Below are positions 55,517 to 62,813 of a DNA stretch of 64,000 nt, piece by piece. The notes below the pieces were generated by a model. The model was given only the letters and a program-made list of their open reading frames with translations, ran no database searches and was not told the DNA's origin. The first letter of the stretch is position 1; the number at the start of each line of letters is the position of its first letter. Location: positions 1 to 64,000 of the IMG/VR virus record IMGVR_UViG_2934051868_000003; one strand, given 5' to 3'. A program made the position numbers and the translations under genes. The DNA is from a virus (lineage: Duplodnaviria > Caudoviricetes).

Positions 55517-55917
55517 CCCTCCCGCTCCGGCCAATGCCAACTCCCGCCGGCCCGCTCGTTTTCCTGGTGGTGGCAGCCGCCCGCCGCCAGGGAGTGGAAG
55601 AACTGACCGGTCGGGTTCAGCACGCACAGGCCCACGACGTCGTTGTCACCGACCTCGGTGACCACAGCGGCGCGGCACTGGGCGGTGAACGCCTGCGAGC
55701 CGTCACTACGCGGCGGGGTTCCGTGACTGACGTAGTGAACGATCCGTCCGACGGTCGGCTTCATCTGCGTGCCGCCCCTTTCTGTCCGATGGTGGGGTGG
55801 CAGGCAGCCGCAGGTGCGGTGCCAAAGGTAGAGGGCTTTCGCGGCGACCTGATGCCAGTTGTCGTCGGCTTGCACGGCGACGGTGTGACCAGCGGCGCTG
55901 ATCTCCACCCGGGCCAT
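55513..55917 (-). CDS. hypothetical phage protein (PTVGRIVHY domain; possible internal start 55764)
   Basis: TGATG coupling to portal; PTVGRIVHY...CRAA...GSWHWP motif. Confidence 0.7.
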   Translation of the reverse strand: MARVEISAAGHTVAVQADDNWHQVAAKALYLWHRTCGCLPPHHRTERGGTQMKPTVGRIVHYVSHGTPPRSDGSQAFTAQCRAAVVTEVGDNDVVGLCVLNPTGQFFHSLAAGGCHHQENERAGGSWHWPEREG

Positions 55918-57935
55918 CAGCCCACAAGCGCGTAGATGAACCCGCGGCAGCGCAGCCCGCCCGCACAGGCTGGGTTGCGGCCCGTCGGCCGCGCAGCGAG
56001 CGCCCCGTCCAACGACGGGTATTCGGTGCCGTCCGCCTCCCGGCACGCCACGCACGTGTTCTTGTCCCGAGTTTCGCCGGCCTTGAAGCGGGTGCCGTCC
56101 GGCAGCGCACCCAACACCTGCTCCCGGCCCACACCCTGAGCGGTCAGCGCCGCATCCGACAGGCTGCCCGCCACCAAACCCGCAGACTTGGGCTGCGACA
56201 GGTCGGTGAGCGCGTCCGCGACGGCGGCCCGCACCTGGCCTTCGTCGGCGCCGCTGTGCGCCATCGCCACCCGCGACGCCGCCGACCGGTACCCGCCGAC
56301 GATCAGATCCACAACCCCGCGGGCCAGATCGCCGAGCCGGGCGCGGGTGGCCGCGTCGAGCGTGGCGTCGACCTGCCGGATCGGCGCCACCTCGACGGCA
56401 GTCATCGCCGCCGCCGACGTCGCCGCCGCCAGCAGCCCCGCCGACACCACCCCCGTCAACGCCGCCGTCGCCGAGGCAGGCACAGCCAACCCGGCCAACC
56501 CGGCGAGAGCACCACCGGCTGTCTCCGCAGCAACCGCCGCGGCGAGCGCGGTAACCAGCGGCCCGGACGCGTTCTGCCACCGTCCGGTCATCTCCGTGAC
56601 GGCCTGGTCGTGGGCGGCGTCCAACGCCTCTACATCCGTTGGCGGCTGGGATGGTGCCGCAGCAGCCACCGCCTCACCCCGCGCGGGCACCTTCGCAGGC
56701 GGCCCCGCCGGGAGCGGCTTCGGCGCATCCTGCCGCTCAGGTAGCCGGTACTCGCGGCGCACCCACGCTTCAAGCCCCGGATCCGCGGCGAGGGCACCCG
56801 AGTTCAGCAGTAGTTGCAGCGACTCGGCGGTCACCTCACGACGGGACCCGATACCCGACACCACCACACGCGGTACCGGCTCGTCCTCGCCCCAGTTCCA
56901 GTCGACGATCCGCGCCGCCGCCTGCCGGGTGGTCGCGTCGGCTACGGACTCCGCCTCGGATTCGAGGGCCAACGTCCAGGAGTCGATGAACGCTGTGCCC
57001 AACGCTCGTGACCCCGACTCCGACGTACCCAGGTCGAGGTGCGGCATCAGCACCGATGTGGCGATTTCCTGGTTCAGGAACCGGATGAACGCCACCGTGT
57101 CAGGCACGGACCCCGTCAACCCGACGATCTTCATCGTGAAGTTCGGGGGAACCGCCGCGCCGGCCTGGTCCCCGGCGCGTGCCGCCGACGCCATGCGCTG
57201 CGCCTCGGCGAGCTGCCCCGGCGTCGGGTTGGTTCCCGGCAGCGCCTCAGCGACGGCTACCCCTGCACCCCACCGCCGGTTCATGATCGCGGCGACGCGA
57301 AGCATCTCCGCTTTCAGCAGCCACGGCCGGTACGCCGCCCGCAACAGCGAGACACCCTGCCAAGAGGCACCCTCACGGTTCCGGGAGTAGAACACCAGCC
57401 GGTCCGCCGGAATCTGCGGACCCCGCCGCCGCAGCCCCGTCACCTGCTGGTCGATACCCAACAGCGCGCCGGTGCGCGGGTCGGCGTGAATGTTCGAGAT
57501 CGTCGCCGGGATCCGCTCCGCCAACGCGGCAAGCCGCGCCCGCCCGTCACCGTCGACCTCGGCCTGCATCTCGAAGGCGTAATGCCCGAACACCTGCGAC
57601 AGCAACGCCGACCGCAGATGATCATTCCAGGACACGCCCCGGCGCCGGAACCCCGACGGCCGATCCTGGCCGACCACGTTCAAACCGAGGCAGTCGGCGA
57701 CGAGCTGCGTCACCTCGGGCCGACAACCCGACCCGTCGAGCTGCCACTGCGCCCGCCGCAACTGCAATGCGTATCCGTCGATGATGGCGCGCAGCCGCGA
57801 GTCGGTGCGCATCTCGCTGTACACGGACACAGACGCCGGGTACAGCAGCGACGGAATGTGCTCGTAGACGTCAACGACGAGGGTTCCGAACTGCCGGTCG
57901 TCGACCATGCCGAGCAGTGAGGTGGGGGCAGACAT
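55917..57935 (-). CDS. portal protein (DUF935-like) fused to MuF-like head morphogenesis domain
   Basis: G.SLLRAAYRPW..K, GSRALG motifs; C-terminal DKNTC..C...C.GG.RCRG. Confidence 0.88.
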   Translation of the reverse strand: MSAPTSLLGMVDDRQFGTLVVDVYEHIPSLLYPASVSVYSEMRTDSRLRAIIDGYALQLRRAQWQLDGSGCRPEVTQLVADCLGLNVVGQDRPSGFRRRGVSWNDHLRSALLSQVFGHYAFEMQAEVDGDGRARLAALAERIPATISNIHADPRTGALLGIDQQVTGLRRRGPQIPADRLVFYSRNREGASWQGVSLLRAAYRPWLLKAEMLRVAAIMNRRWGAGVAVAEALPGTNPTPGQLAEAQRMASAARAGDQAGAAVPPNFTMKIVGLTGSVPDTVAFIRFLNQEIATSVLMPHLDLGTSESGSRALGTAFIDSWTLALESEAESVADATTRQAAARIVDWNWGEDEPVPRVVVSGIGSRREVTAESLQLLLNSGALAADPGLEAWVRREYRLPERQDAPKPLPAGPPAKVPARGEAVAAAAPSQPPTDVEALDAAHDQAVTEMTGRWQNASGPLVTALAAAVAAETAGGALAGLAGLAVPASATAALTGVVSAGLLAAATSAAAMTAVEVAPIRQVDATLDAATRARLGDLARGVVDLIVGGYRSAASRVAMAHSGADEGQVRAAVADALTDLSQPKSAGLVAGSLSDAALTAQGVGREQVLGALPDGTRFKAGETRDKNTCVACREADGTEYPSLDGALAARPTGRNPACAGGLRCRGFIYALVG

Positions 57936-57961: not shown

Positions 57962-60007
57962 CTACAGCGGCTCGCTCGCCCAGTCCACGTCCCGAACCTC
58001 CGGCAACTCCACCCGGTCAACCGCTGGTTGGGGATGCGCCTGCACCGGCGGCGGTGCCCACTGCGTCGCCGACGCGAACACAGCCAACGCCAGCGCCGTC
58101 ACCGACCCGTCGAATCGGCTACTCGGAAACGCCAGGAACTCCGACGTCCACTGCTCCCGCCAATCCGCCTCACCTGGCAGCCACACGCGTCCCGCAGAGA
58201 CGGCGGACGACGCCGGCAACGCCCGGCCCAGCCGGTCCGGGTCGATGTCCAGCGGTGTCACCACCACACCAGGAAGCGACAAACCCGCCTTGATGAGCGA
58301 CGCGAACTGCTGTCGGGTCACGTAGGTGGCGTCCACAGCCCAACCGCGCGCCGCGTCGGCGACCACCTGAAGTGGGTTACTGTCACCGACTCGGCAGCGT
58401 TCACGGGCCAGCAGCAGCAGGTGCCCTTCAAGGGTGCGACCCCACACGGCAGCCACAGTGAAGTCGGCGCCGCCGTCCTCGCCCGCCGCGATATGGGCGG
58501 TGGCAAACAGCCACATCGACGCGACAGGCCACGTCCGGCCGCCGTACGCCACACCGCGGCTACCGTCGTCGGCTCGCGCCCACGACCAGTACCGCCAGTA
58601 CATGCGGCCGAACAGATCCCCGCCAGCCGGAGCGACGGCGGTCAGCATGAGCGCGTCAGCGCGGTCCGGGGACGGCATGCCCCGCTTCCGCATCTCATCC
58701 TTCGACTCGATCTGAATCTGACCGCGCGACGTGAACCGATACTTGATCGCACCCAACTGCGCGGCCACACCCTCATCGGCGGGGTCCAAGTCGATGTCGC
58801 CGTCCTCGAACCGGCTGCGCAACGCCCAAAACCATTCGGAGCGGGCGTTGAGGAACCGTTCCCGATCCGACGCGGCGGCGCCGGCCTGCATGTCCAGCAC
58901 CCCGTAGCCAAGCTCCGTCAACCGGTCCACAACCCCGGCGCCGACGCCGACACCGTCCACGCGGATCTCATCCGCGCCCGTCTCCCGTTTCGCGTCGATA
59001 ACTCGGCCGGTGGTTTCGGTGGTGGCCTGTTTCGTGTACTCGCCGACCAGCCTTGCGACCGGGCCGTTGCGGACGTAGATGACGGTGCGGTCGGAACCGA
59101 ACCGGGCCACGTCCACACCCAGGATGCCGCGGCCGGCCCGTTCGAGGCTGCGCTGTTGGGCGGCCTCAATCCAGGCGGGCGGGATGAGAACGTCTTCGCC
59201 GATCTCCGGGAACTCGCCGAGCACCTTCGACACGTAGCGGGGGGAGTCCTCACCCCAGCGGCGTTTCTTGTCCTCCACCCACTCGGGGTCGAGCATCAGC
59301 GGACGCAGATCGTCGGGAAACGGCTCGTCGGTGAAGTTGGGGGTGTCAAACGCTGAGATGCCGATGACGTTCCAACCCGAGCCGGGCTTGCACACGTCAC
59401 CGAACTCGGTGTTCGGATCGTCAGGATTCGCGACGGCAAGGATCCGGCAGTCCTTGTTCGTCGTGATCGCTTCAACAGCCGTCCACAGCTGTCGAGGCAC
59501 GCCGCATGCTTCGTCGATGATCACGAGAACGTATCGGCGGTGGATGCCCTGAAAGCCGTGGACATCGGTGTCAGCGGGCTTGCGGCCCCAGCCGATGAGC
59601 GTGCCATCCGCAAGCTGCCACTGGTCGGACAGCAGGACTCGGCCTGGTAGAGGGTTGCCCCTGCCGGCTGCCTTCTTCGCGGCACCCCTGATCTCTTCCC
59701 AGAGGATGCCGTGTATCTGCTGATAGGTCGGCGCTGTGCTGACGACAAACGCCTCACCGGGCGGGTGAACATCCAGCCAGTACGAGGCAATGCGGGAAGC
59801 GAGGAACGACTTCCCGGAGTTGTGGCAACTGCGGACGGCAGTCCGCCTGTTGTTGACGACCGATAGGGCGATTTGCTGCTGCTTGCTCCAGAGATGTTCG
59901 CCCAGCCGGTCGGCGACCCAGCCGGCGGGATCACCAGAGAATGGGTGCGGGGCCGGCGGTTCGAATGCTCTGGCGGCCAACTCGAACGGTGACACGACAG
60001 CGGTCAC
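57962..60007 (-). CDS. terL: terminase large subunit with extra degenerate nuclease domain
   Basis: SCHNSGKS Walker A, IIDEA Walker B, GVDVARFGSD and SPDRADA nuclease motifs. Confidence 0.92.
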   Translation of the reverse strand: MTAVVSPFELAARAFEPPAPHPFSGDPAGWVADRLGEHLWSKQQQIALSVVNNRRTAVRSCHNSGKSFLASRIASYWLDVHPPGEAFVVSTAPTYQQIHGILWEEIRGAAKKAAGRGNPLPGRVLLSDQWQLADGTLIGWGRKPADTDVHGFQGIHRRYVLVIIDEACGVPRQLWTAVEAITTNKDCRILAVANPDDPNTEFGDVCKPGSGWNVIGISAFDTPNFTDEPFPDDLRPLMLDPEWVEDKKRRWGEDSPRYVSKVLGEFPEIGEDVLIPPAWIEAAQQRSLERAGRGILGVDVARFGSDRTVIYVRNGPVARLVGEYTKQATTETTGRVIDAKRETGADEIRVDGVGVGAGVVDRLTELGYGVLDMQAGAAASDRERFLNARSEWFWALRSRFEDGDIDLDPADEGVAAQLGAIKYRFTSRGQIQIESKDEMRKRGMPSPDRADALMLTAVAPAGGDLFGRMYWRYWSWARADDGSRGVAYGGRTWPVASMWLFATAHIAAGEDGGADFTVAAVWGRTLEGHLLLLARERCRVGDSNPLQVVADAARGWAVDATYVTRQQFASLIKAGLSLPGVVVTPLDIDPDRLGRALPASSAVSAGRVWLPGEADWREQWTSEFLAFPSSRFDGSVTALALAVFASATQWAPPPVQAHPQPAVDRVELPEVRDVDWASEPL

Positions 60008-60020
60008 CGTCACCGCCCCC

Positions 60021-61124
60021 TTAGACCGGCACCATCCCCGAGCCTGCCAGGAACATGCCAGCAACCTTGACCGCACGCACGCGTCGACGTGTGACTGCCT
60101 CTACCGACACCACCGTTCGGTGGGTGTGGCGGCGATCAGCCTCGCCCGACCATCGTGAAGCCTTCCGGGGTAGGGCGAACGGGCATTCGGTCGGTGTGAA
60201 GTTCACGTGCCAGTAGTGGTAGATATCGCCTGGCCGGTTCGGGTGCGGTCGGGACTGCGCGGTCATGAACGCCCGCCAGCCGAGACTGCGAACCAACTCC
60301 ACCAAGCCTTCGGCGAGGACGCGGTCACGTTGCTCGACTGCGGCGGATCTGGCGCCCATCCAGAAACCGTCGGTGTCCATGAACCCGCGTAGGAGGTCCA
60401 GCCTCTGCTGGCGGCTTCCCCGCAGGTATCCCTGGGGAAAGTGCTTGTTCTGGAAGACGCCGGCAGCCTTCAACTGCGTCTTGCCCCTGCCCTTGTGGTC
60501 GGGCAAATTGAGCACTCCGTCATCCGGGCGGAACCCGAAGTCAACGCTGCGGTCCCTCACTCGCGCGGCACGCATCGACACCGCCATGCCCTGCCGGCGG
60601 AACTCTTCGATCATCCACTGGTCGCACGTCGTCATCGTGGCGCTGTCCTTGCACCCGTCACCCAGCCATGCCCCCAGCACGTACGGCGGAAGAGGCAAGT
60701 CGCCGTCGCCGAGTTCAAGTGGACGGCAGAGGGGGATGCTCCAGTTGCTCGCGCTCGACGCGCCGATCTTCGAACGTCGTTCGAGAGCCGGCCCGAGAAC
60801 CCGCTCCGCTAGATCCCATCGGTCGCGCCAGTCGACTACACCTTGGCGCGCTCTGGCCCGCCGACCAGAGTTGATCGCAGACCAGGAGTTGCCGGAATGT
60901 GCGATCAGCTCGGCCCCATCATCGAAGCGCACCTTTTGGCAGGTTCGGTACGTGGTGGGGTCTGTGACCGCGAGAACCGGCGTCGCGTATCCGCGCTCAT
61001 CCAGCAGCTCCACGCCAGGCCGAAGATCAAGAATCGTCGTCCACCCGGTCGGGGTGGCAAGAGGCGTGTCGAGTGTGAACGCCTTGAACCCTGGATCGGC
61101 GAGGTCCCCGCTGATACAAACCAT
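60021..61124 (-). CDS. Stand-alone intein-like LAGLIDADG endonuclease lacking splicing residues
   Basis: KAFTLDTPLATPTGW, PYVLGAWLGDG, LLRGFMDTDG; ends FLAGSGMVPV-stop without His-Asn. Confidence 0.85.
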   Translation of the reverse strand: MVCISGDLADPGFKAFTLDTPLATPTGWTTILDLRPGVELLDERGYATPVLAVTDPTTYRTCQKVRFDDGAELIAHSGNSWSAINSGRRARARQGVVDWRDRWDLAERVLGPALERRSKIGASSASNWSIPLCRPLELGDGDLPLPPYVLGAWLGDGCKDSATMTTCDQWMIEEFRRQGMAVSMRAARVRDRSVDFGFRPDDGVLNLPDHKGRGKTQLKAAGVFQNKHFPQGYLRGSRQQRLDLLRGFMDTDGFWMGARSAAVEQRDRVLAEGLVELVRSLGWRAFMTAQSRPHPNRPGDIYHYWHVNFTPTECPFALPRKASRWSGEADRRHTHRTVVSVEAVTRRRVRAVKVAGMFLAGSGMVPV

Positions 61125-61134
61125 GTCGCTAGTT

Positions 61135-61153
61135 TACCCAACACTGTTGGGTA
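61135..61153. promoter_or_regulatory. Palindrome TACCCAACA-C-TGTTGGGTA between divergent genes
   Basis: Perfect 9-bp arms; extra half site CTGTTGGGTA at 61172. Confidence 0.75.
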
Positions 61154-61180
61154 GATGGGCTTCGCCCTACGCTGTTGGGT

Positions 61181-61375
61181 ATGGAGGGATACCTGACCAC
61201 CGCCGAGGCGGCCACCAAGCTCGGGCTGACATCCCGGACCATGTACTACTACGCCCGCGACCACGCAGACTTCCCTCAACCCCAGCGATTCGGACGCGCG
61301 CTCATGTGGCCCGCCGCAGCGCTCGAAGCGTGGCGCACCAAACACCCCGCGCGGCCCCGCCAGCCGAACGGCTGA
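61181..61375 (+). CDS. AlpA-family DNA-binding protein
   Basis: LTTAEAATKLGLTSRTMY...FPQP..FGR...W....LEAW. Confidence 0.82.
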   Translation: MEGYLTTAEAATKLGLTSRTMYYYARDHADFPQPQRFGRALMWPAAALEAWRTKHPARPRQPNG

Positions 61376-61420
61376 CTATCTGGCCCATTCAGGGGTGCAA
61401 CCCCTCATCGGCCGAACGGA

Positions 61421-62011
61421 CTAGGCGACCGCCCGCAGATGCCGGGGAACCACCGTGCCGACCTTCGCCTGCTGCTCCGGCGTCAAATCCAGATCCCCCA
61501 GGATCGCCTTGATGACGCCCGCCAGCATCGCGCCCTGCTGCTCGGCCAGCCGAACCTTCCGCTCCTCAATCCCGGCGGAGATCGCCTCCTTGGCGACCTT
61601 CACCAAGTGGGCGCGTTCGCGCTGCCACAGCTGCACCCAGATGTTCACCTCGGCGGCGCGGGTGGTGTCCACGCCGGGGAACTCGCCCGCGTCCTTGGTG
61701 ACCTCTTCGGTGACACCCCAGACGACTTGGTCCGCTTGGAGGGCCTGCACCTGCTGGTGCAGCCAGTCGACGGCCCCGGCGGTGCGGTACACCTCTTCAA
61801 GGAGCGCATCTCGGGGGTCAATCTCGCGGGGCAGGCCGAACGTCGCTACAGCCTTCTCGGCGAGCACGCGTTCTGCCGCTTTTCGGTGCGTCGGGGTGTT
61901 GCCGCCATGAAGACGGCACCGGCCAGACTTATTTGGCGTTCCCCAACCTTGAGGCTTCCGGCATGTATCGCCGCCCCTCTTTGCCGCTCCGCAGCGCTCC
62001 GTCTCGGGCAC
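61421..62011 (-). CDS. terS: terminase small subunit (HGG-motif type)
   Basis: CGA...C....G.GT...GRCRLHGG.TP; position upstream of terL. Confidence 0.75.
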   Translation of the reverse strand: MPETERCGAAKRGGDTCRKPQGWGTPNKSGRCRLHGGNTPTHRKAAERVLAEKAVATFGLPREIDPRDALLEEVYRTAGAVDWLHQQVQALQADQVVWGVTEEVTKDAGEFPGVDTTRAAEVNIWVQLWQRERAHLVKVAKEAISAGIEERKVRLAEQQGAMLAGVIKAILGDLDLTPEQQAKVGTVVPRHLRAVA

Positions 62012-62813
62012 GTCTCACCGCCTTCAGCGCAGACAGCGACGCGGATGTGTTGGCAGCTTCGAGGGCCGCTTCGATCTCATCCCAGTGGTCGGCCGACAGC
62101 CAAACGCCAAGACGACGGTTTGCGATCTGCTGCGAAGGGGTCGCCCACCGACAGTTGTCGGGGGTGTAGTTGCCATCCACGTTGATGCGATCGAGTGTCA
62201 TGCCTTCCGGGCGTTCACCCATGTCGTGAAGGAAGGCGCCGAAGTTGTCGCGCCATCGGTCGCAAACCTCGATCCCCCGGCCGCCAAAGCTGGCGTAGCC
62301 GTTGGTGCTCGGGCGGTAGCAGCGATCACGCATCGCTTGCCATGACCGATAGGTGGGTGACGGGGTCGGCCGCCGGTGCCCGTGCTCCCTGTTGCTCTTG
62401 CCTACCGCGGACCAGCGAGCCTTGCTCTGGCATCCGCAGTGGTCCCACCCTGGTAGGCGCTGCTCAAGTTTGAGTATCGAGATGACCTTTGAGCCGCCGC
62501 AGTCGCAGTCGGCGCGTACCTGAAGATTGCCGGATCGAGCTACCGGCGGGGCTTCTTCCCTGACGGTGAGAGCGCCGAAACGCCGCCCGATTAGAGGCGC
62601 GATCTTCGCGGCACGTTGCTCAGCACGCGTGTCGATCTCGTGGCGCTTTACTGCCCGCTGCACTGTTGACGGGCCGCAACCGATCTCAGCCGCAATCTGG
62701 CGCACCCCTCGGGTGCCTACTTGGCGGCGGAGCCAGTCGCGATCCGCGAGCTTCCTACGCCAAGGTTCCCCGGTCGTGCCTTCCATGGCCAACTTAACGC
62801 TGTGTTTTTCCAT
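61929..62813 (-). CDS. HNH-type endonuclease with N-terminal HTH
   Basis: Y.SW.AM..RC...GGRGI.VC.RW...F..DMGERP...TLDRI..DGNY.P.NCRWAT. Confidence 0.85.
   Translation of the reverse strand: MEKHSVKLAMEGTTGEPWRRKLADRDWLRRQVGTRGVRQIAAEIGCGPSTVQRAVKRHEIDTRAEQRAAKIAPLIGRRFGALTVREEAPPVARSGNLQVRADCDCGGSKVISILKLEQRLPGWDHCGCQSKARWSAVGKSNREHGHRRPTPSPTYRSWQAMRDRCYRPSTNGYASFGGRGIEVCDRWRDNFGAFLHDMGERPEGMTLDRINVDGNYTPDNCRWATPSQQIANRRLGVWLSADHWDEIEAALEAANTSASLSALKAVRRARDGALRSGKEGRRYMPEASRLGNAK

What the first reader, a model, noticed from the sequence alone, without database searches (positions are those of the whole stretch)
60021..61375. Extein-less, splicing-dead intein turned into a regulated free-standing endonuclease
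Seen: a leaderless ORF with only ~14 residues before an intein-like start (AFTLDTPLATPTGW). The block B His appears replaced (AHSGNSW), both LAGLIDADG motifs are intact, and a stop falls where His-Asn should be (FLAGSGMVPV). It sits 13 nt upstream of terL and is divergent from an AlpA gene across a perfect palindrome. Inference: an intein that escaped its host protein and now acts as a controlled homing or competition nuclease, plausibly against terL of rival phages, which could also explain the chimeric terL.
Basis: partly seen in the sequence, partly recalled or inferred. Interest (0 to 1): 0.78.

Follow-up and report, generated by a model that had tools for sequence, protein, structure and literature searches.

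The report
Intein turned free-standing phage nuclease gene
A prophage carries a gene that was once a self-splicing protein insert (an intein) but now stands alone, has lost all its splicing residues, keeps its DNA-cutting motifs, and sits with its own small regulator between the two DNA-packaging genes, where it probably acts as a selfish, regulated DNA-cutting element.

Summary
ORF 60021-61124 (-) encodes 367 aa: a 14-residue leader, then a full Hint + LAGLIDADG protein nested by sequence and tree among class 3 inteins. Ala at position 1 is the class 3 norm, not decay. Lost are His B:10 (Asn79), the class 3 nucleophile Cys F:4 (Ala351), Thr G:5 (Val367) and the terminal His-Asn (TAA falls exactly there). 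The nuclease residues D156, K227 and D252 are kept.

Seven further proteins (56-68% identity) share this architecture. dN/dS against the one relative with DNA is about 0.2, the same as for the neighbouring genes. The AlphaFold model (pLDDT 92) matches PI-SceI.

The ORF and a divergent HTH_17 gene, with two conserved operators, form a roughly 1.34-kb insert between a terS-like gene and terL. Related phages have the empty site. The same HTH and operator module flanks an HNH gene and a TnpB gene in other viral contigs.

terL is chimeric at both ends.

Most likely reading: a regulated free-standing homing endonuclease derived from an intein. It parallels yeast HO/WHO elements and resembles the published Arth_1007 "intein pseudogene". 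Cleavage activity and target site remain untested.

The parts
60021..61124 (-). Extein-less intein homologue (Hint + two-motif LAGLIDADG), 367 aa. Key residues and their codons: leader residues 1-14 (61083-61124); Ala15 = intein position 1 (61080-61082); Asn79 = B:10 (60888-60890); Trp81 = B:12; D156 (60657-60659); K227 (60444-60446); D252 (60369-60371); Ala351 = F:4 (60072-60074); Val367 = G:5 (60024-60026); TAA 60021-60023.
61135..61153 (.). Operator O1, a perfect palindrome with core ACCCAA-N5-TTGGGT. It overlaps the -10-like TAAACT (61131-61136 on the plus strand) of the nuclease gene.
   Evidence: The same core is present in L002, L111 and L114.
61164..61181 (.). Operator O2, an imperfect copy (CCCTA-N5-TTGGGT) abutting the HTH start codon. 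Its left half contains a TAnnnT hexamer (TACGCT, 61168-61173) 7 nt before the ATG.
   Evidence: Conserved in L002, L111 and L114.
61181..61375 (+). HTH_17 (excisionase/MerR-like) DNA-binding protein, 64 aa from ATG 61181 (longest ORF from TTG 61175). It is the only plus-strand gene among the six assigned here between 55917 and 62813 (portal to HNH) and is the presumed regulator of the cassette.
61363..61419 (.). Left flank of the insert. Two direct repeats GCCGAACGG (61363-61371 and 61411-61419) lie between the terS-like stop and the HTH stop. This stretch aligns with the whole terS-terL spacer of the empty site in L106, which also has two repeats.
57962..60013 (-). terL, 681-683 aa, chimeric. 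The first 13 codons are of the L002/L106 type. Residues 1-459 are otherwise 69% identical to the L103-type terL. Residues about 460-681 (57965-58630) are an extra, weakly Terminase_6C-like domain.
61421..62011 (-). terS-like gene (phrog_3678, function unassigned; weak HGGxSTG match). It is the conserved upstream neighbour of the insertion site.

Best explanation
The ORF is a former class 3 LAGLIDADG intein that has left its host protein and is now kept as a free-standing gene. It can no longer splice, because the nucleophile Cys F:4, His B:10, Thr G:5 and the terminal His-Asn are all gone and there are no exteins. It retains the complete Hint fold and an intact two-motif LAGLIDADG active site.

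Together with a divergently transcribed HTH_17 gene and two operators it forms a roughly 1.34-kb two-gene cassette (about 60021-61362). The cassette is inserted into the short spacer just upstream of the terL start.

Inferred mechanism:
- The HTH protein binds O1 and O2, which overlap both divergent promoters. It thereby represses itself and the nuclease.
- When expressed, the nuclease cuts the cassette-less terS-terL junction or the 5' end of terL of related phages (co-infecting or superinfecting).
- Repair from the cassette-bearing genome copies the cassette and adjacent terL codons. This spreads the element and creates recombination joints in terL.
- The Hint domain is retained as a structural and DNA-binding part, as in PI-SceI (recalled knowledge).

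Shown: ancestry, loss of splicing residues, purifying selection, fold, insertion polymorphism, and conserved regulator and operators. Inferred: cleavage activity, the target, repression, the leaderless start, and homing.
For: **Ancestry.**
- PHROG terL-with-intein profile, E 1e-22.
- Class 3 DnaB mini-inteins 6rix and 6bs8, E 3e-13.
- 677 phage records match; in the 40 listed the match lies under annotated genes, mostly terminase large subunit or exonuclease.
- The tree places the clade (SH-aLRT 100) inside the half of the family whose members are inserted after a P-loop Gly-Lys.

**Loss of splicing residues set against retained nuclease residues.**

| Residue | 48 other rows (almost all extein-embedded) | 11 free-standing rows |
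|---|---|---|
| His B:10 | 47/48 | 2/11 |
| Cys F:4 | 47/48 | 0/11 |
| Thr G:5 | 46/48 | 1/11 |
| His-Asn | 46/48 | 0/11 |
| D156 | 47/48 | 11/11 |
| K227 | 45/48 | 11/11 |
| D252 | 48/48 | 11/11 |

**Maintenance.**
- Eight proteins of 319-372 aa at 56-100% identity. Seven end in the same alignment column and the eighth (P0008) two residues later.
- dN/dS window vs L002 is 0.195 overall (Hint-N 0.20, LAGLIDADG 0.19, Hint-C 0.20). This compares with terS-like 0.21 and HTH 0.18.

**Fold.** AlphaFold2 pLDDT 92.2, pTM 0.91. Foldseek top hits are PI-SceI (E 2e-17, TM 0.64-0.71), then TliVMA, PI-PfuI and I-DmoI.

**Cassette and mobility.**
- L002 has the same order: terS-like (74% identity), HTH (62%), nuclease (65%), terL. 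Its terL and portal belong to different families.
- L103/L104, L106 and L107/L108 carry the terS-like gene (61-69% identity) directly followed by terL, with no cassette.
- The L106 spacer aligns to both flanks of the window insert.

**Regulation.**
- O1 and O2 are conserved next to the HTH gene in the window, L002, L111 and L114.
- O1 is unique in the 93.9-kb record.

**Recombination joint next to the nuclease.** The first 13 residues of terL match L002 (11/13) and L106 (10/13) but L103 only 5/13, although the rest of the protein is 69% identical to L103.

**Literature context.** Nuclease genes cluster at terminase genes and at exchange boundaries in phages (passages of PMC10055350).
Against: - No cleavage activity, target site or expression has been shown.
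- Pfam Hom_end scores 19 bits, below its 21.1 cut-off, and NCBIfam gives nothing.
- Genomic context is known for only 2 of the 8 clade members. DNA for the other six could not be fetched.
- dS is saturated (1.1-1.6), so the dN/dS ratio is rough and rests on one sequence pair.
- The cassette-less relatives are 61-69% identical in the terS-like protein, not near-isogenic. Gain by homing is therefore not separated from gain or loss by ordinary mosaic recombination.
- The shared terL N-terminus includes an AAR-x-FEP motif present in all terL genes that follow this terS-like family. Part of that similarity may therefore be functional (for example terS binding) rather than co-conversion.
- The only tested protein of this kind, Arth_1007, was judged a pseudogene. 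Its nuclease activity was not assayed in the sections read.
- The HTH protein could control the downstream terL-portal operon rather than the nuclease as such.
Confidence: 0.6

Rival explanations
1. Decaying intein remnant. The ORF is a leftover of an intein-bearing gene destroyed by recombination, with no function, as was concluded for Arth_1007.
For: All splicing residues are lost and there are no exteins. The published Arth_1007 case has the same Asn at B:10 and a non-Cys residue at F:4, and it did not splice even after reversion of those residues. Fragmentary relatives exist: L055 has an open frame of 163 aa, and P0075 is N-truncated with His-Lys at the end.
Against: - Eight intact ORFs at 56-68% identity, seven with the same end column.
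- dN/dS about 0.2, equal to the neighbouring genes.
- Catalytic D156, D252 and K227 kept in 11 of 11 free-standing forms.
- Confident full-length fold.
- Conserved start context and operators.
Confidence: 0.1
2. Domesticated phage function. The protein serves the phage itself, for example as an accessory DNA-binding or nicking factor of the packaging machinery, like the HNH proteins that assist some terminases. It would not be a homing element.
For: It lies between the terS-like gene and terL. In L113-L115 an HNH_3 gene occupies the same position under the same HTH module. The literature notes that HK97's HNH nuclease upstream of its terminase acts cooperatively with terminase in cos cleavage (passage of PMC10055350).
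Against: Phages with the same terS-like family and the same terL types lack it (L103/L104, L106, L107/L108), so it is dispensable for packaging. It occurs upstream of two unrelated terL and portal families. The same regulator is paired with a TnpB gene outside any packaging context in L111.
Confidence: 0.12
3. Prophage-encoded exclusion nuclease. It is expressed from the lysogen to cut incoming related phages, giving a competitive or defensive benefit without copying itself.
For: The record is a provirus. The nuclease sits under a repressor-like switch. The HTH protein gives a weak match to a PADLOC regulator model (mad1, E 7e-6).
Against: The nuclease matches no PADLOC model. The insertion polymorphism at one precise site and the recombination joint in the adjacent terL fit copying better than pure exclusion. 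This rival overlaps the main reading and differs only in who benefits.
Confidence: 0.15

Closest known systems
Arthrobacter sp. FB24 Arth_1007 'intein pseudogene' (Tori & Perler 2011, PMC3196547; abstract, introduction, results and discussion read)
   Same: Class 3 intein by phylogeny, located in a prophage remnant. Asn at B:10 (at intein position 65 in both), non-Cys at F:4 (Gly there, Gly in 4 of the 8 clade members, Ala here), Trp B:12 kept. Only very short flanks instead of exteins. No splicing.
   Different: Arth_1007 keeps Thr G:5 and has 52 + 14 flanking residues; here Val replaces Thr and the flanks are 14 + 0. It was interpreted as a decaying pseudogene. Here a conserved family, purifying selection, intact nuclease motifs and a dedicated regulator argue for function. 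The two sequences were not compared directly because Arth_1007 was not among the sequences returned by the tools.
Class 3 inteins (e.g. Mycobacterium smegmatis DnaB1, PDB 6bs8; mycobacteriophage terL and DnaB inteins; PMC2807308 seen in a search listing only, PMC5050341 passages read)
   Same: Sequence and fold homology, Ala at position 1, Trp B:12, LAGLIDADG blocks C, D and E, and a Lys at position -1 as in P-loop insertions.
   Different: Not embedded in a host protein. Lacks Cys F:4, Thr G:5, His B:10 and the terminal His-Asn, so it cannot follow the class 3 splicing pathway.
Yeast HO endonuclease and WHO elements (Coughlan et al. 2020, PMC7282813; abstract and section headings read)
   Same: Intein-like Hint + LAGLIDADG proteins that are free-standing genes and work without protein splicing. 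They lie next to their target gene and replace its end when they home. Here the first 13 codons of terL travel with the cassette.
   Different: Those are eukaryotic, carry a C-terminal zinc-finger domain that is absent here, and target the 3' end of FBA1 or the MAT locus. Cleavage and homing are demonstrated there and not here. Nothing indicates common descent as free-standing genes.
PI-SceI (VMA1-derived endonuclease; PDB 1vde, 1lws)
   Same: Best structural match over both domains (TM 0.64-0.71).
   Different: PI-SceI is a splicing-competent class 1 intein; sequence identity is 13-15%.
Free-standing phage homing endonuclease genes near terminase genes (Barth et al. 2023, PMC10055350; passages read)
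   Same: A nuclease gene inserted beside terL at a boundary of mosaic exchange, with a second nuclease gene (HNH, 61929-62813) close by.
   Different: Those are mostly T5orf172/GIY-YIG and HNH genes. None of the passages read reports a Hint-bearing, intein-derived free-standing LAGLIDADG gene or a dedicated divergent repressor module.

Membership tests
Intein (class 3) | In-frame insertion in a host protein, flanked by N- and C-exteins | tested here: not met
   There is a 14-aa leader and a TAA directly after G:5. terL follows in another frame (+1 here, +2 in L002) after 7-13 nt or 23 nt. Of the complete open frames among 101 related loci, only L002 is of free-standing size.
Intein (class 3) | No Cys/Ser/Thr nucleophile at position 1 | tested here: met
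   Ala15 aligns with position 1.
Intein (class 3) | WCT triplet: Trp B:12, Cys F:4, Thr G:5 | tested here: not met
   Trp81 is present, but F:4 is Ala351 and G:5 is Val367. Among the 48 other rows, 47 have Cys and 46 have Thr. The definition is taken from PMC3196547 and PMC5050341.
Intein (class 3) | His at B:10 and terminal His-Asn followed by a +1 nucleophile | tested here: not met
   Asn79 stands at B:10 and the stop codon falls at G:6.
Intein (class 3) | Hint fold and sequence descent from class 3 inteins | tested here: met
   PDB sequence hits 6rix and 6bs8. Foldseek matches to PI-SceI and to class 3 DnaB inteins. The tree places it within the family.
LAGLIDADG homing endonuclease (single-chain, two motifs) | Two LAGLIDADG helices, each ending in a catalytic acidic residue | tested here: met
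   D156 and D252. D252 is invariant and D156 nearly invariant in 59 sequences.
LAGLIDADG homing endonuclease (single-chain, two motifs) | Family profile match above the curated threshold | tested here: inconclusive
   Pfam Hom_end E 0.0016, 19 bits against a cut-off of 21.1. Precomputed PF05204 is listed for 4 of the 7 close relatives. Structural matches to PI-SceI and I-DmoI.
LAGLIDADG homing endonuclease (single-chain, two motifs) | Site-specific double-strand cleavage of an allele lacking the element | not testable with these tools
   Needs a cleavage assay.
LAGLIDADG homing endonuclease (single-chain, two motifs) | Presence/absence polymorphism at one genomic site | tested here: met
   Filled site in the window and L002. 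Empty site in L103/L104, L106 and L107/L108. The flanks align.
HO / WHO elements | Intein-like protein fused to a zinc-finger domain | tested here: not met
   The ORF ends at block G and there is no further domain. The feature is taken from a section heading of PMC7282813.
HO / WHO elements | Homing that replaces the adjacent end of the target gene | tested here: inconclusive
   The first 13 terL residues follow the cassette type (11/13 to L002) and not the terL body type (5/13 to L103). This rests on two cassette-bearing genomes only.
AlpA (PF05930) / HTH_17 (PF12728) | Profile match above the curated threshold | tested here: met
   HTH_17 scores 33 bits against a cut-off of 27. It was the only Pfam family listed at E <= 0.01, so the gene is filed as HTH_17 and not as AlpA.

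The most novel reading that the evidence does not exclude
This would be a phage counterpart of the yeast WHO/HO story. A class 3 intein left its extein and now propagates as a repressor-controlled, free-standing homing cassette at the terS-terL junction. It carries the first codons of terL with it and so produces chimeric terminases. The published Arth_1007 'pseudogene' would then belong to a functional family. In addition, the HTH and twin-operator unit would be a portable safety switch shared by three unrelated selfish nucleases: intein-derived LAGLIDADG, HNH and TnpB.
Probability: 0.35. Interest if true: 0.8.

Novelty: new variant of a known kind. Interest (0 to 1): 0.62.

Why it matters
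Inteins are usually thought to end either by precise loss or by decay. The one reported extein-less bacterial case was read as a pseudogene. A conserved, selected and regulated extein-less intein in phages would show a third fate in prokaryotic viruses, namely conversion into a free-standing homing nuclease. Until now that fate is documented for yeast HO/WHO.

Two old questions also become testable. One is what the Hint domain contributes to DNA recognition once splicing is irrelevant. The other is how homing nucleases shape mosaic joints in terminase genes.

The shared HTH and operator module hints at a general way in which selfish nucleases, TnpB included, are kept silent in prophages.

If active, the enzyme is a new long-site endonuclease scaffold.

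Tried and rejected
**Searches that found nothing or added nothing**
- Single-protein scans: genome contigs with the ORF and viral contigs with the HTH protein returned nothing. Alignment-based scans replaced them.
- The HTH protein has no match in the 50,697 phage records.
- Earlier findings of this scan: nothing.
- The operator-pair pattern in viral contigs found only the 5 contigs already known.
- In 401 genomes of the class of G001, 14 had matches at E <= 1e-50. All lay in open frames of 539-1228 aa, so they are true inteins, and no free-standing clade member was found in those searched. This tally includes the unpublished genome G374, which contributes one such match; no other claim rests on it.
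- Exhaustive HMMER against 1.84 billion representatives: the clade collapses to one representative (P0003). The other 149 of the best 150 are 533 aa or longer.
- PADLOC: no model matches the nuclease.
- Expression: no RNA holder was listed.
- The sigma-70 consensus scan gave 0 promoter-like and 0 terminator-like sites.

**Readings considered and rejected**
- In-frame fusion to terL, or a conserved frameshift to terL. Rejected because the spacer length and the frame differ between the window (+1) and L002 (+2), and because a second assembly agrees base for base.
- A specifically terminase-derived ancestor. The tree does not support it: the nearest extein-embedded row is P0009 (extein unknown), and the terL-hosted P0029 is not sister.
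- A single origin of all free-standing forms. Rejected because P0035 groups with dCTP-deaminase-hosted inteins (SH-aLRT 99), so there are at least two origins.

In one search the terL query started at 60006 and was out of frame, so its terL rows are frame-shifted matches and are not used. Searches failed for the same reason. The correct coordinates gave.

**Rows dropped.** The tree omitted P0006, P0039, P0046, P0063 and P0075 as partial. A4 used 59 of the 81 hits, leaving out those with short coverage of the query.

**Papers.** Searches for 'free-standing intein', 'orphan intein', 'extein-less' and 'standalone intein' had 0 occurrences. A combined search gave 2 papers, which were not read beyond the listing.
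Full report
**1. What is there**

The minus-strand ORF 60021-61124 encodes 367 aa. On the same strand lie, in order:
- an HNH-type gene (61929-62813; phrog_374);
- a terS-like gene (61421-62011; phrog_3678, weak HGGxSTG match);
- the ORF itself;
- terL (57962 to 60013 or 60007);
- a Mu-type portal gene (55917-57935).

The only plus-strand gene among these is a 64-66-aa HTH_17 gene (61181/61175-61375; PF12728, E 7e-8, above cut-off). It is divergent from the ORF across 56 bp. The window is the first 64 kb of a 93,877-base provirus record.

**2. Ancestry**

- Pfam gives only a sub-threshold Hom_end match.
- The PHROG profile of intein-bearing terL matches residues 14-258 (E 1e-22).
- The best solved relatives by sequence are the class 3 DnaB mini-inteins 6rix, 6riy and 6bs8 (E 3e-13 to 2e-11).
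- tblastn finds 677 phage records, all below 60% identity. In the 40 listed, the match lies under annotated genes, mostly terminase large subunit or exonuclease.
- In the 81 database hits, the extein-embedded relatives show class 3 junctions. These read ...Gly-Lys|Ala-Leu-Ala-Leu-Asp-Thr in DnaB, terL and AAA_24 hosts, or ...Asp-Tyr-Lys|Gly-Leu... in PD-(D/E)XK hosts, and they end ...Ile-Pro-Thr-His-Asn followed by Thr, Ser or Cys.

The class 3 definition (no position-1 nucleophile; Trp B:12, Cys F:4, Thr G:5) is taken from PMC3196547 and PMC5050341.

**3. What is lost and what is kept**

These counts come from a 59-sequence alignment.

| Residue | 48 other rows (almost all extein-embedded) | 11 free-standing rows |
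|---|---|---|
| His B:10 | 47/48 | 2/11 |
| Trp B:12 | 47/48 | 10/11 |
| Cys F:4 | 47/48 | 0/11 |
| Thr G:5 | 46/48 | 1/11 |
| His-Asn | 46/48 | 0/11 |
| D156 | 47/48 | 11/11 |
| K227 | 45/48 | 11/11 |
| D252 | 48/48 | 11/11 |

In the window protein the residues are Asn79, Trp81, Ala351 and Val367, followed by TAA. terL follows 7 or 13 nt later in the +1 frame. In L002 the gap is 23 nt and the frame is +2. There is thus no in-frame fusion and no conserved frameshift route. A second assembly of a run that may be the source of this DNA agrees over 59900-61500 with 0 differences at depth 105.

**4. It is maintained, not decaying**

- Seven proteins (P0002-P0008; 56-68% identity; 319-372 aa) share four features: the leader (MVCIxGDLAxxxFK), Asn at B:10 (6 of the 7; P0008 has His), Ala, Gly or His at F:4, and an end at or two residues after G:5.
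- dN/dS between the window and L002, the only relative with DNA, is 0.195. It is equal across the Hint-N (0.20), LAGLIDADG (0.19) and Hint-C (0.20) parts. The terS-like gene gives 0.21 and the HTH gene 0.18. dS is saturated, so the ratio is rough.
- AlphaFold2 with the 59-row alignment gives pLDDT 92.2 and pTM 0.91.
- Foldseek's top matches are PI-SceI chains (E 2e-17 to 5e-14; TM 0.64-0.71). Next come the TliVMA and PhoVMA inteins, PI-PfuI, the class 3 DnaB mini-inteins for the Hint part, and I-DmoI for the nuclease part.

**5. Rarity and origins**

- Against 1.84 billion representatives, the clade is a single 50%-identity cluster (P0003). The remaining 149 of the best 150 are 533 aa or longer. 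4,484 proteins score E <= 1e-30.
- Among 101 related loci, only L002 has a complete open frame of free-standing size.
- In 401 genomes of one actinobacterial class, 14 had strong matches, all in frames of 539-1228 aa (the tally includes the unpublished genome G374).
- A quick IQ-TREE of 54 rows (5 partial rows dropped) gives the clade SH-aLRT 100. It groups loosely (84, not starred) with two other free-standing proteins, P0014 and P0023, and then with P0009.
- P0035 groups separately with dCTP-deaminase-hosted inteins (99). Extein loss therefore happened at least twice.
- All of these lie in the Gly-Lys|Ala half of the family (100) and not in the PD-(D/E)XK half. The conserved Lys14 before Ala15 may be a relic of a P-loop lysine; this is an inference.

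**6. The cassette and its insertion site**

L002 (an 8.8-kb viral contig) has the same gene order:
- terS-like gene (74% identity);
- divergent HTH gene (62%);
- nuclease gene (65%);
- terL.

Its terL (phrog_38; Terminase_6N/6C) and portal (phrog_10963) are of different families from the window's (phrog_2; Mu-type portal).

Relatives found with the terS-like protein lack the cassette:
- L103/L104 (69% identity): a 91-bp spacer, then a terL 69% identical to window terL residues 1-459.
- L106 (67%): a 70-bp spacer, then an L002-type terL.
- L107/L108 (61%): the two genes abut.
- L109 has a different 190-aa ORF between them.

The L106 spacer has the form stop, repeat, 38 nt, repeat, 10 nt, ATG. 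It aligns to the window's left flank (61421 down to 61363, with the two GCCGAACGG repeats). It also aligns to the right flank from just after the nuclease stop into terL. This bounds the insert at about 60021-61362, which is exactly the two genes plus the operators.

**7. Regulation**

- O1 (61135-61153; core ACCCAA-N5-TTGGGT) is a perfect palindrome. O2 (61164-61181; CCCTA-N5-TTGGGT) abuts the HTH start codon.
- The same two sites, 25 or 28 bp apart start to start, flank the HTH gene in L002, L111 and L114.
- In all four, the left half of O2 contains a TAnnnT hexamer 7 nt before the HTH start codon.
- In the two Hint-LAGLIDADG cases, a TAnnnT hexamer at the edge of O1 ends 6 nt before the nuclease ATG, with no Shine-Dalgarno-like run. 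This fits two leaderless, back-to-back, operator-covered promoters. It is an inference, because the consensus promoter scan found nothing.
- O1 occurs nowhere else in the 93.9-kb record, so the regulator seems to act locally.

HTH relatives (60-67% identity) lie beside other nucleases:
- an HNH_3 gene (PF13392, E 1e-9) between a terS-like HTH_23 gene and terL in L113-L115;
- a TnpB gene (OrfB_IS605 + Cas12f-like TNB) in L111.

A pattern scan of the viral collection found this operator pair only in these five contigs. The HTH and operator unit thus looks like a portable control module for selfish nucleases.

**8. terL chimera**

- Window terL residues 1-459 are 69% identical to the 504-aa L103 terL.
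- Its first 13 residues agree with L002 (11/13) and L106 (10/13) and with L103 only 5/13.
- Residues about 460-681 are an extra domain. It weakly resembles the nuclease half of other terL proteins (27% identity to L002 terL residues 268-469; TIGR01630 E 5e-5, below cut-off; phrog_38 E 2e-7).
- GC content is 62-66% over 59000-61400 and 70-76% in the portal gene.

A joint at about codon 14 of terL, directly downstream of the nuclease gene, is what co-conversion after a nearby cut would leave. However, all terL genes paired with this terS-like family share an AAR-x-FEP motif, so part of the similarity may be functional.

**9. Comparison with what is known**

The closest published object is Arth_1007 of Arthrobacter sp. 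FB24 (PMC3196547).
- It is a class 3 intein by phylogeny and lies in a prophage remnant.
- It has Asn at B:10 and Gly at F:4.
- Its flanks are 52 and 14 residues long.
- It did not splice even after reversion of those residues.
- It was called the first retained intein pseudogene.

The present family has the same hallmark substitutions but shows selection, an intact nuclease site and a regulator.

The closest mechanistic parallel is yeast HO and the WHO elements. These are intein-like nucleases that home without splicing and replace the end of the neighbouring target gene (PMC7282813, abstract). They carry a zinc-finger domain that is absent here.

Phage nuclease genes are known to gather at terminase genes and at exchange boundaries (PMC10055350, passages). 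Recent surveys of actinophage inteins describe class 3 inteins in terL and Cas4, as well as odd nuclease arrangements. In the passages read they mention no extein-less inteins. Searches for 'free-standing intein', 'orphan intein', 'extein-less' and 'standalone intein' gave 0 occurrences.

**10. Verdict**

It remains inferred for cleavage, target and homing. This is a new variant of a known kind: a free-standing LAGLIDADG homing endonuclease gene that is a whole former intein, with its own repressor module. Interest 0.62.

Noticed in passing
window 57962-60013 (-): terL is a three-part mosaic. The first 13 codons are of the L002/L106 type. The body (residues 1-459) is 69% identical to the 504-aa L103 terL. 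An extra C-terminal part of about 220 aa weakly resembles a second Terminase_6C-type nuclease domain. It may be a relic of a replaced terL that matched the Mu-type portal.
   Followed up: partly
L113:3255-4195, L114:3254-4192, L115:3254-4192; L111:2733-4189: The same HTH gene (60-67% identity) with the same two operators is divergently paired with an HNH_3 endonuclease between a terS-like gene and terL in L113-L115. In L111 it is paired with a TnpB (OrfB_IS605/Cas12f-like) gene. One regulator module thus serves three kinds of selfish nuclease.
   Followed up: partly
window 61929-62813 (-): A 294-aa HNH-type endonuclease gene (phrog_374, E 7e-51; N-terminal HTH_38-like) lies upstream of the terS-like gene and overlaps its longest ORF by 83 nt. 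The packaging region therefore carries two nuclease genes.
   Followed up: no
window 61363-61371 and 61411-61419; L106 about 640-700: A direct repeat (GCCGAACGG on the plus strand) occurs twice, 48 bp apart, in the spacer after the terS-like gene. A similar pair is present in the empty site of L106. The insert begins right after the second copy. A similar heptamer recurs in terL codons 7-9.
   Followed up: partly
proteins P0014, P0023, P0035: Three further proteins of 372-373 aa, only 30-34% identical to the window protein, also lack Cys F:4 and the His-Asn and have no exteins. P0035 has a separate origin next to dCTP-deaminase-hosted inteins. Extein loss has therefore recurred.
   Followed up: partly
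protein P0020 (617 aa; named by its source as from Brooklawnia cerclae): An extein-embedded relative that keeps Cys F:4 and His-Asn but has Gln at B:10 and Leu at B:12. It could be an inactive or atypical intein within a real host protein.
   Followed up: no
window 59000-61400 vs 55900-57400: GC content is 62-66% across the cassette and the 5' two-thirds of terL, against 70-76% in the portal gene. This fits a module boundary inside terL.
   Followed up: no
window 61181-61375 (+): The HTH protein gives a weak match to the PADLOC model mad1 (mads_1; E 7e-6). This is probably shared HTH_17 ancestry rather than membership of a defence system.
   Followed up: no
L103:1140-1230, L104:5601-5691: The cassette-less terS-terL spacer of L103/L104 holds a long GC-rich inverted repeat (hairpin-like). 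It is absent from the window and from L106.
   Followed up: no
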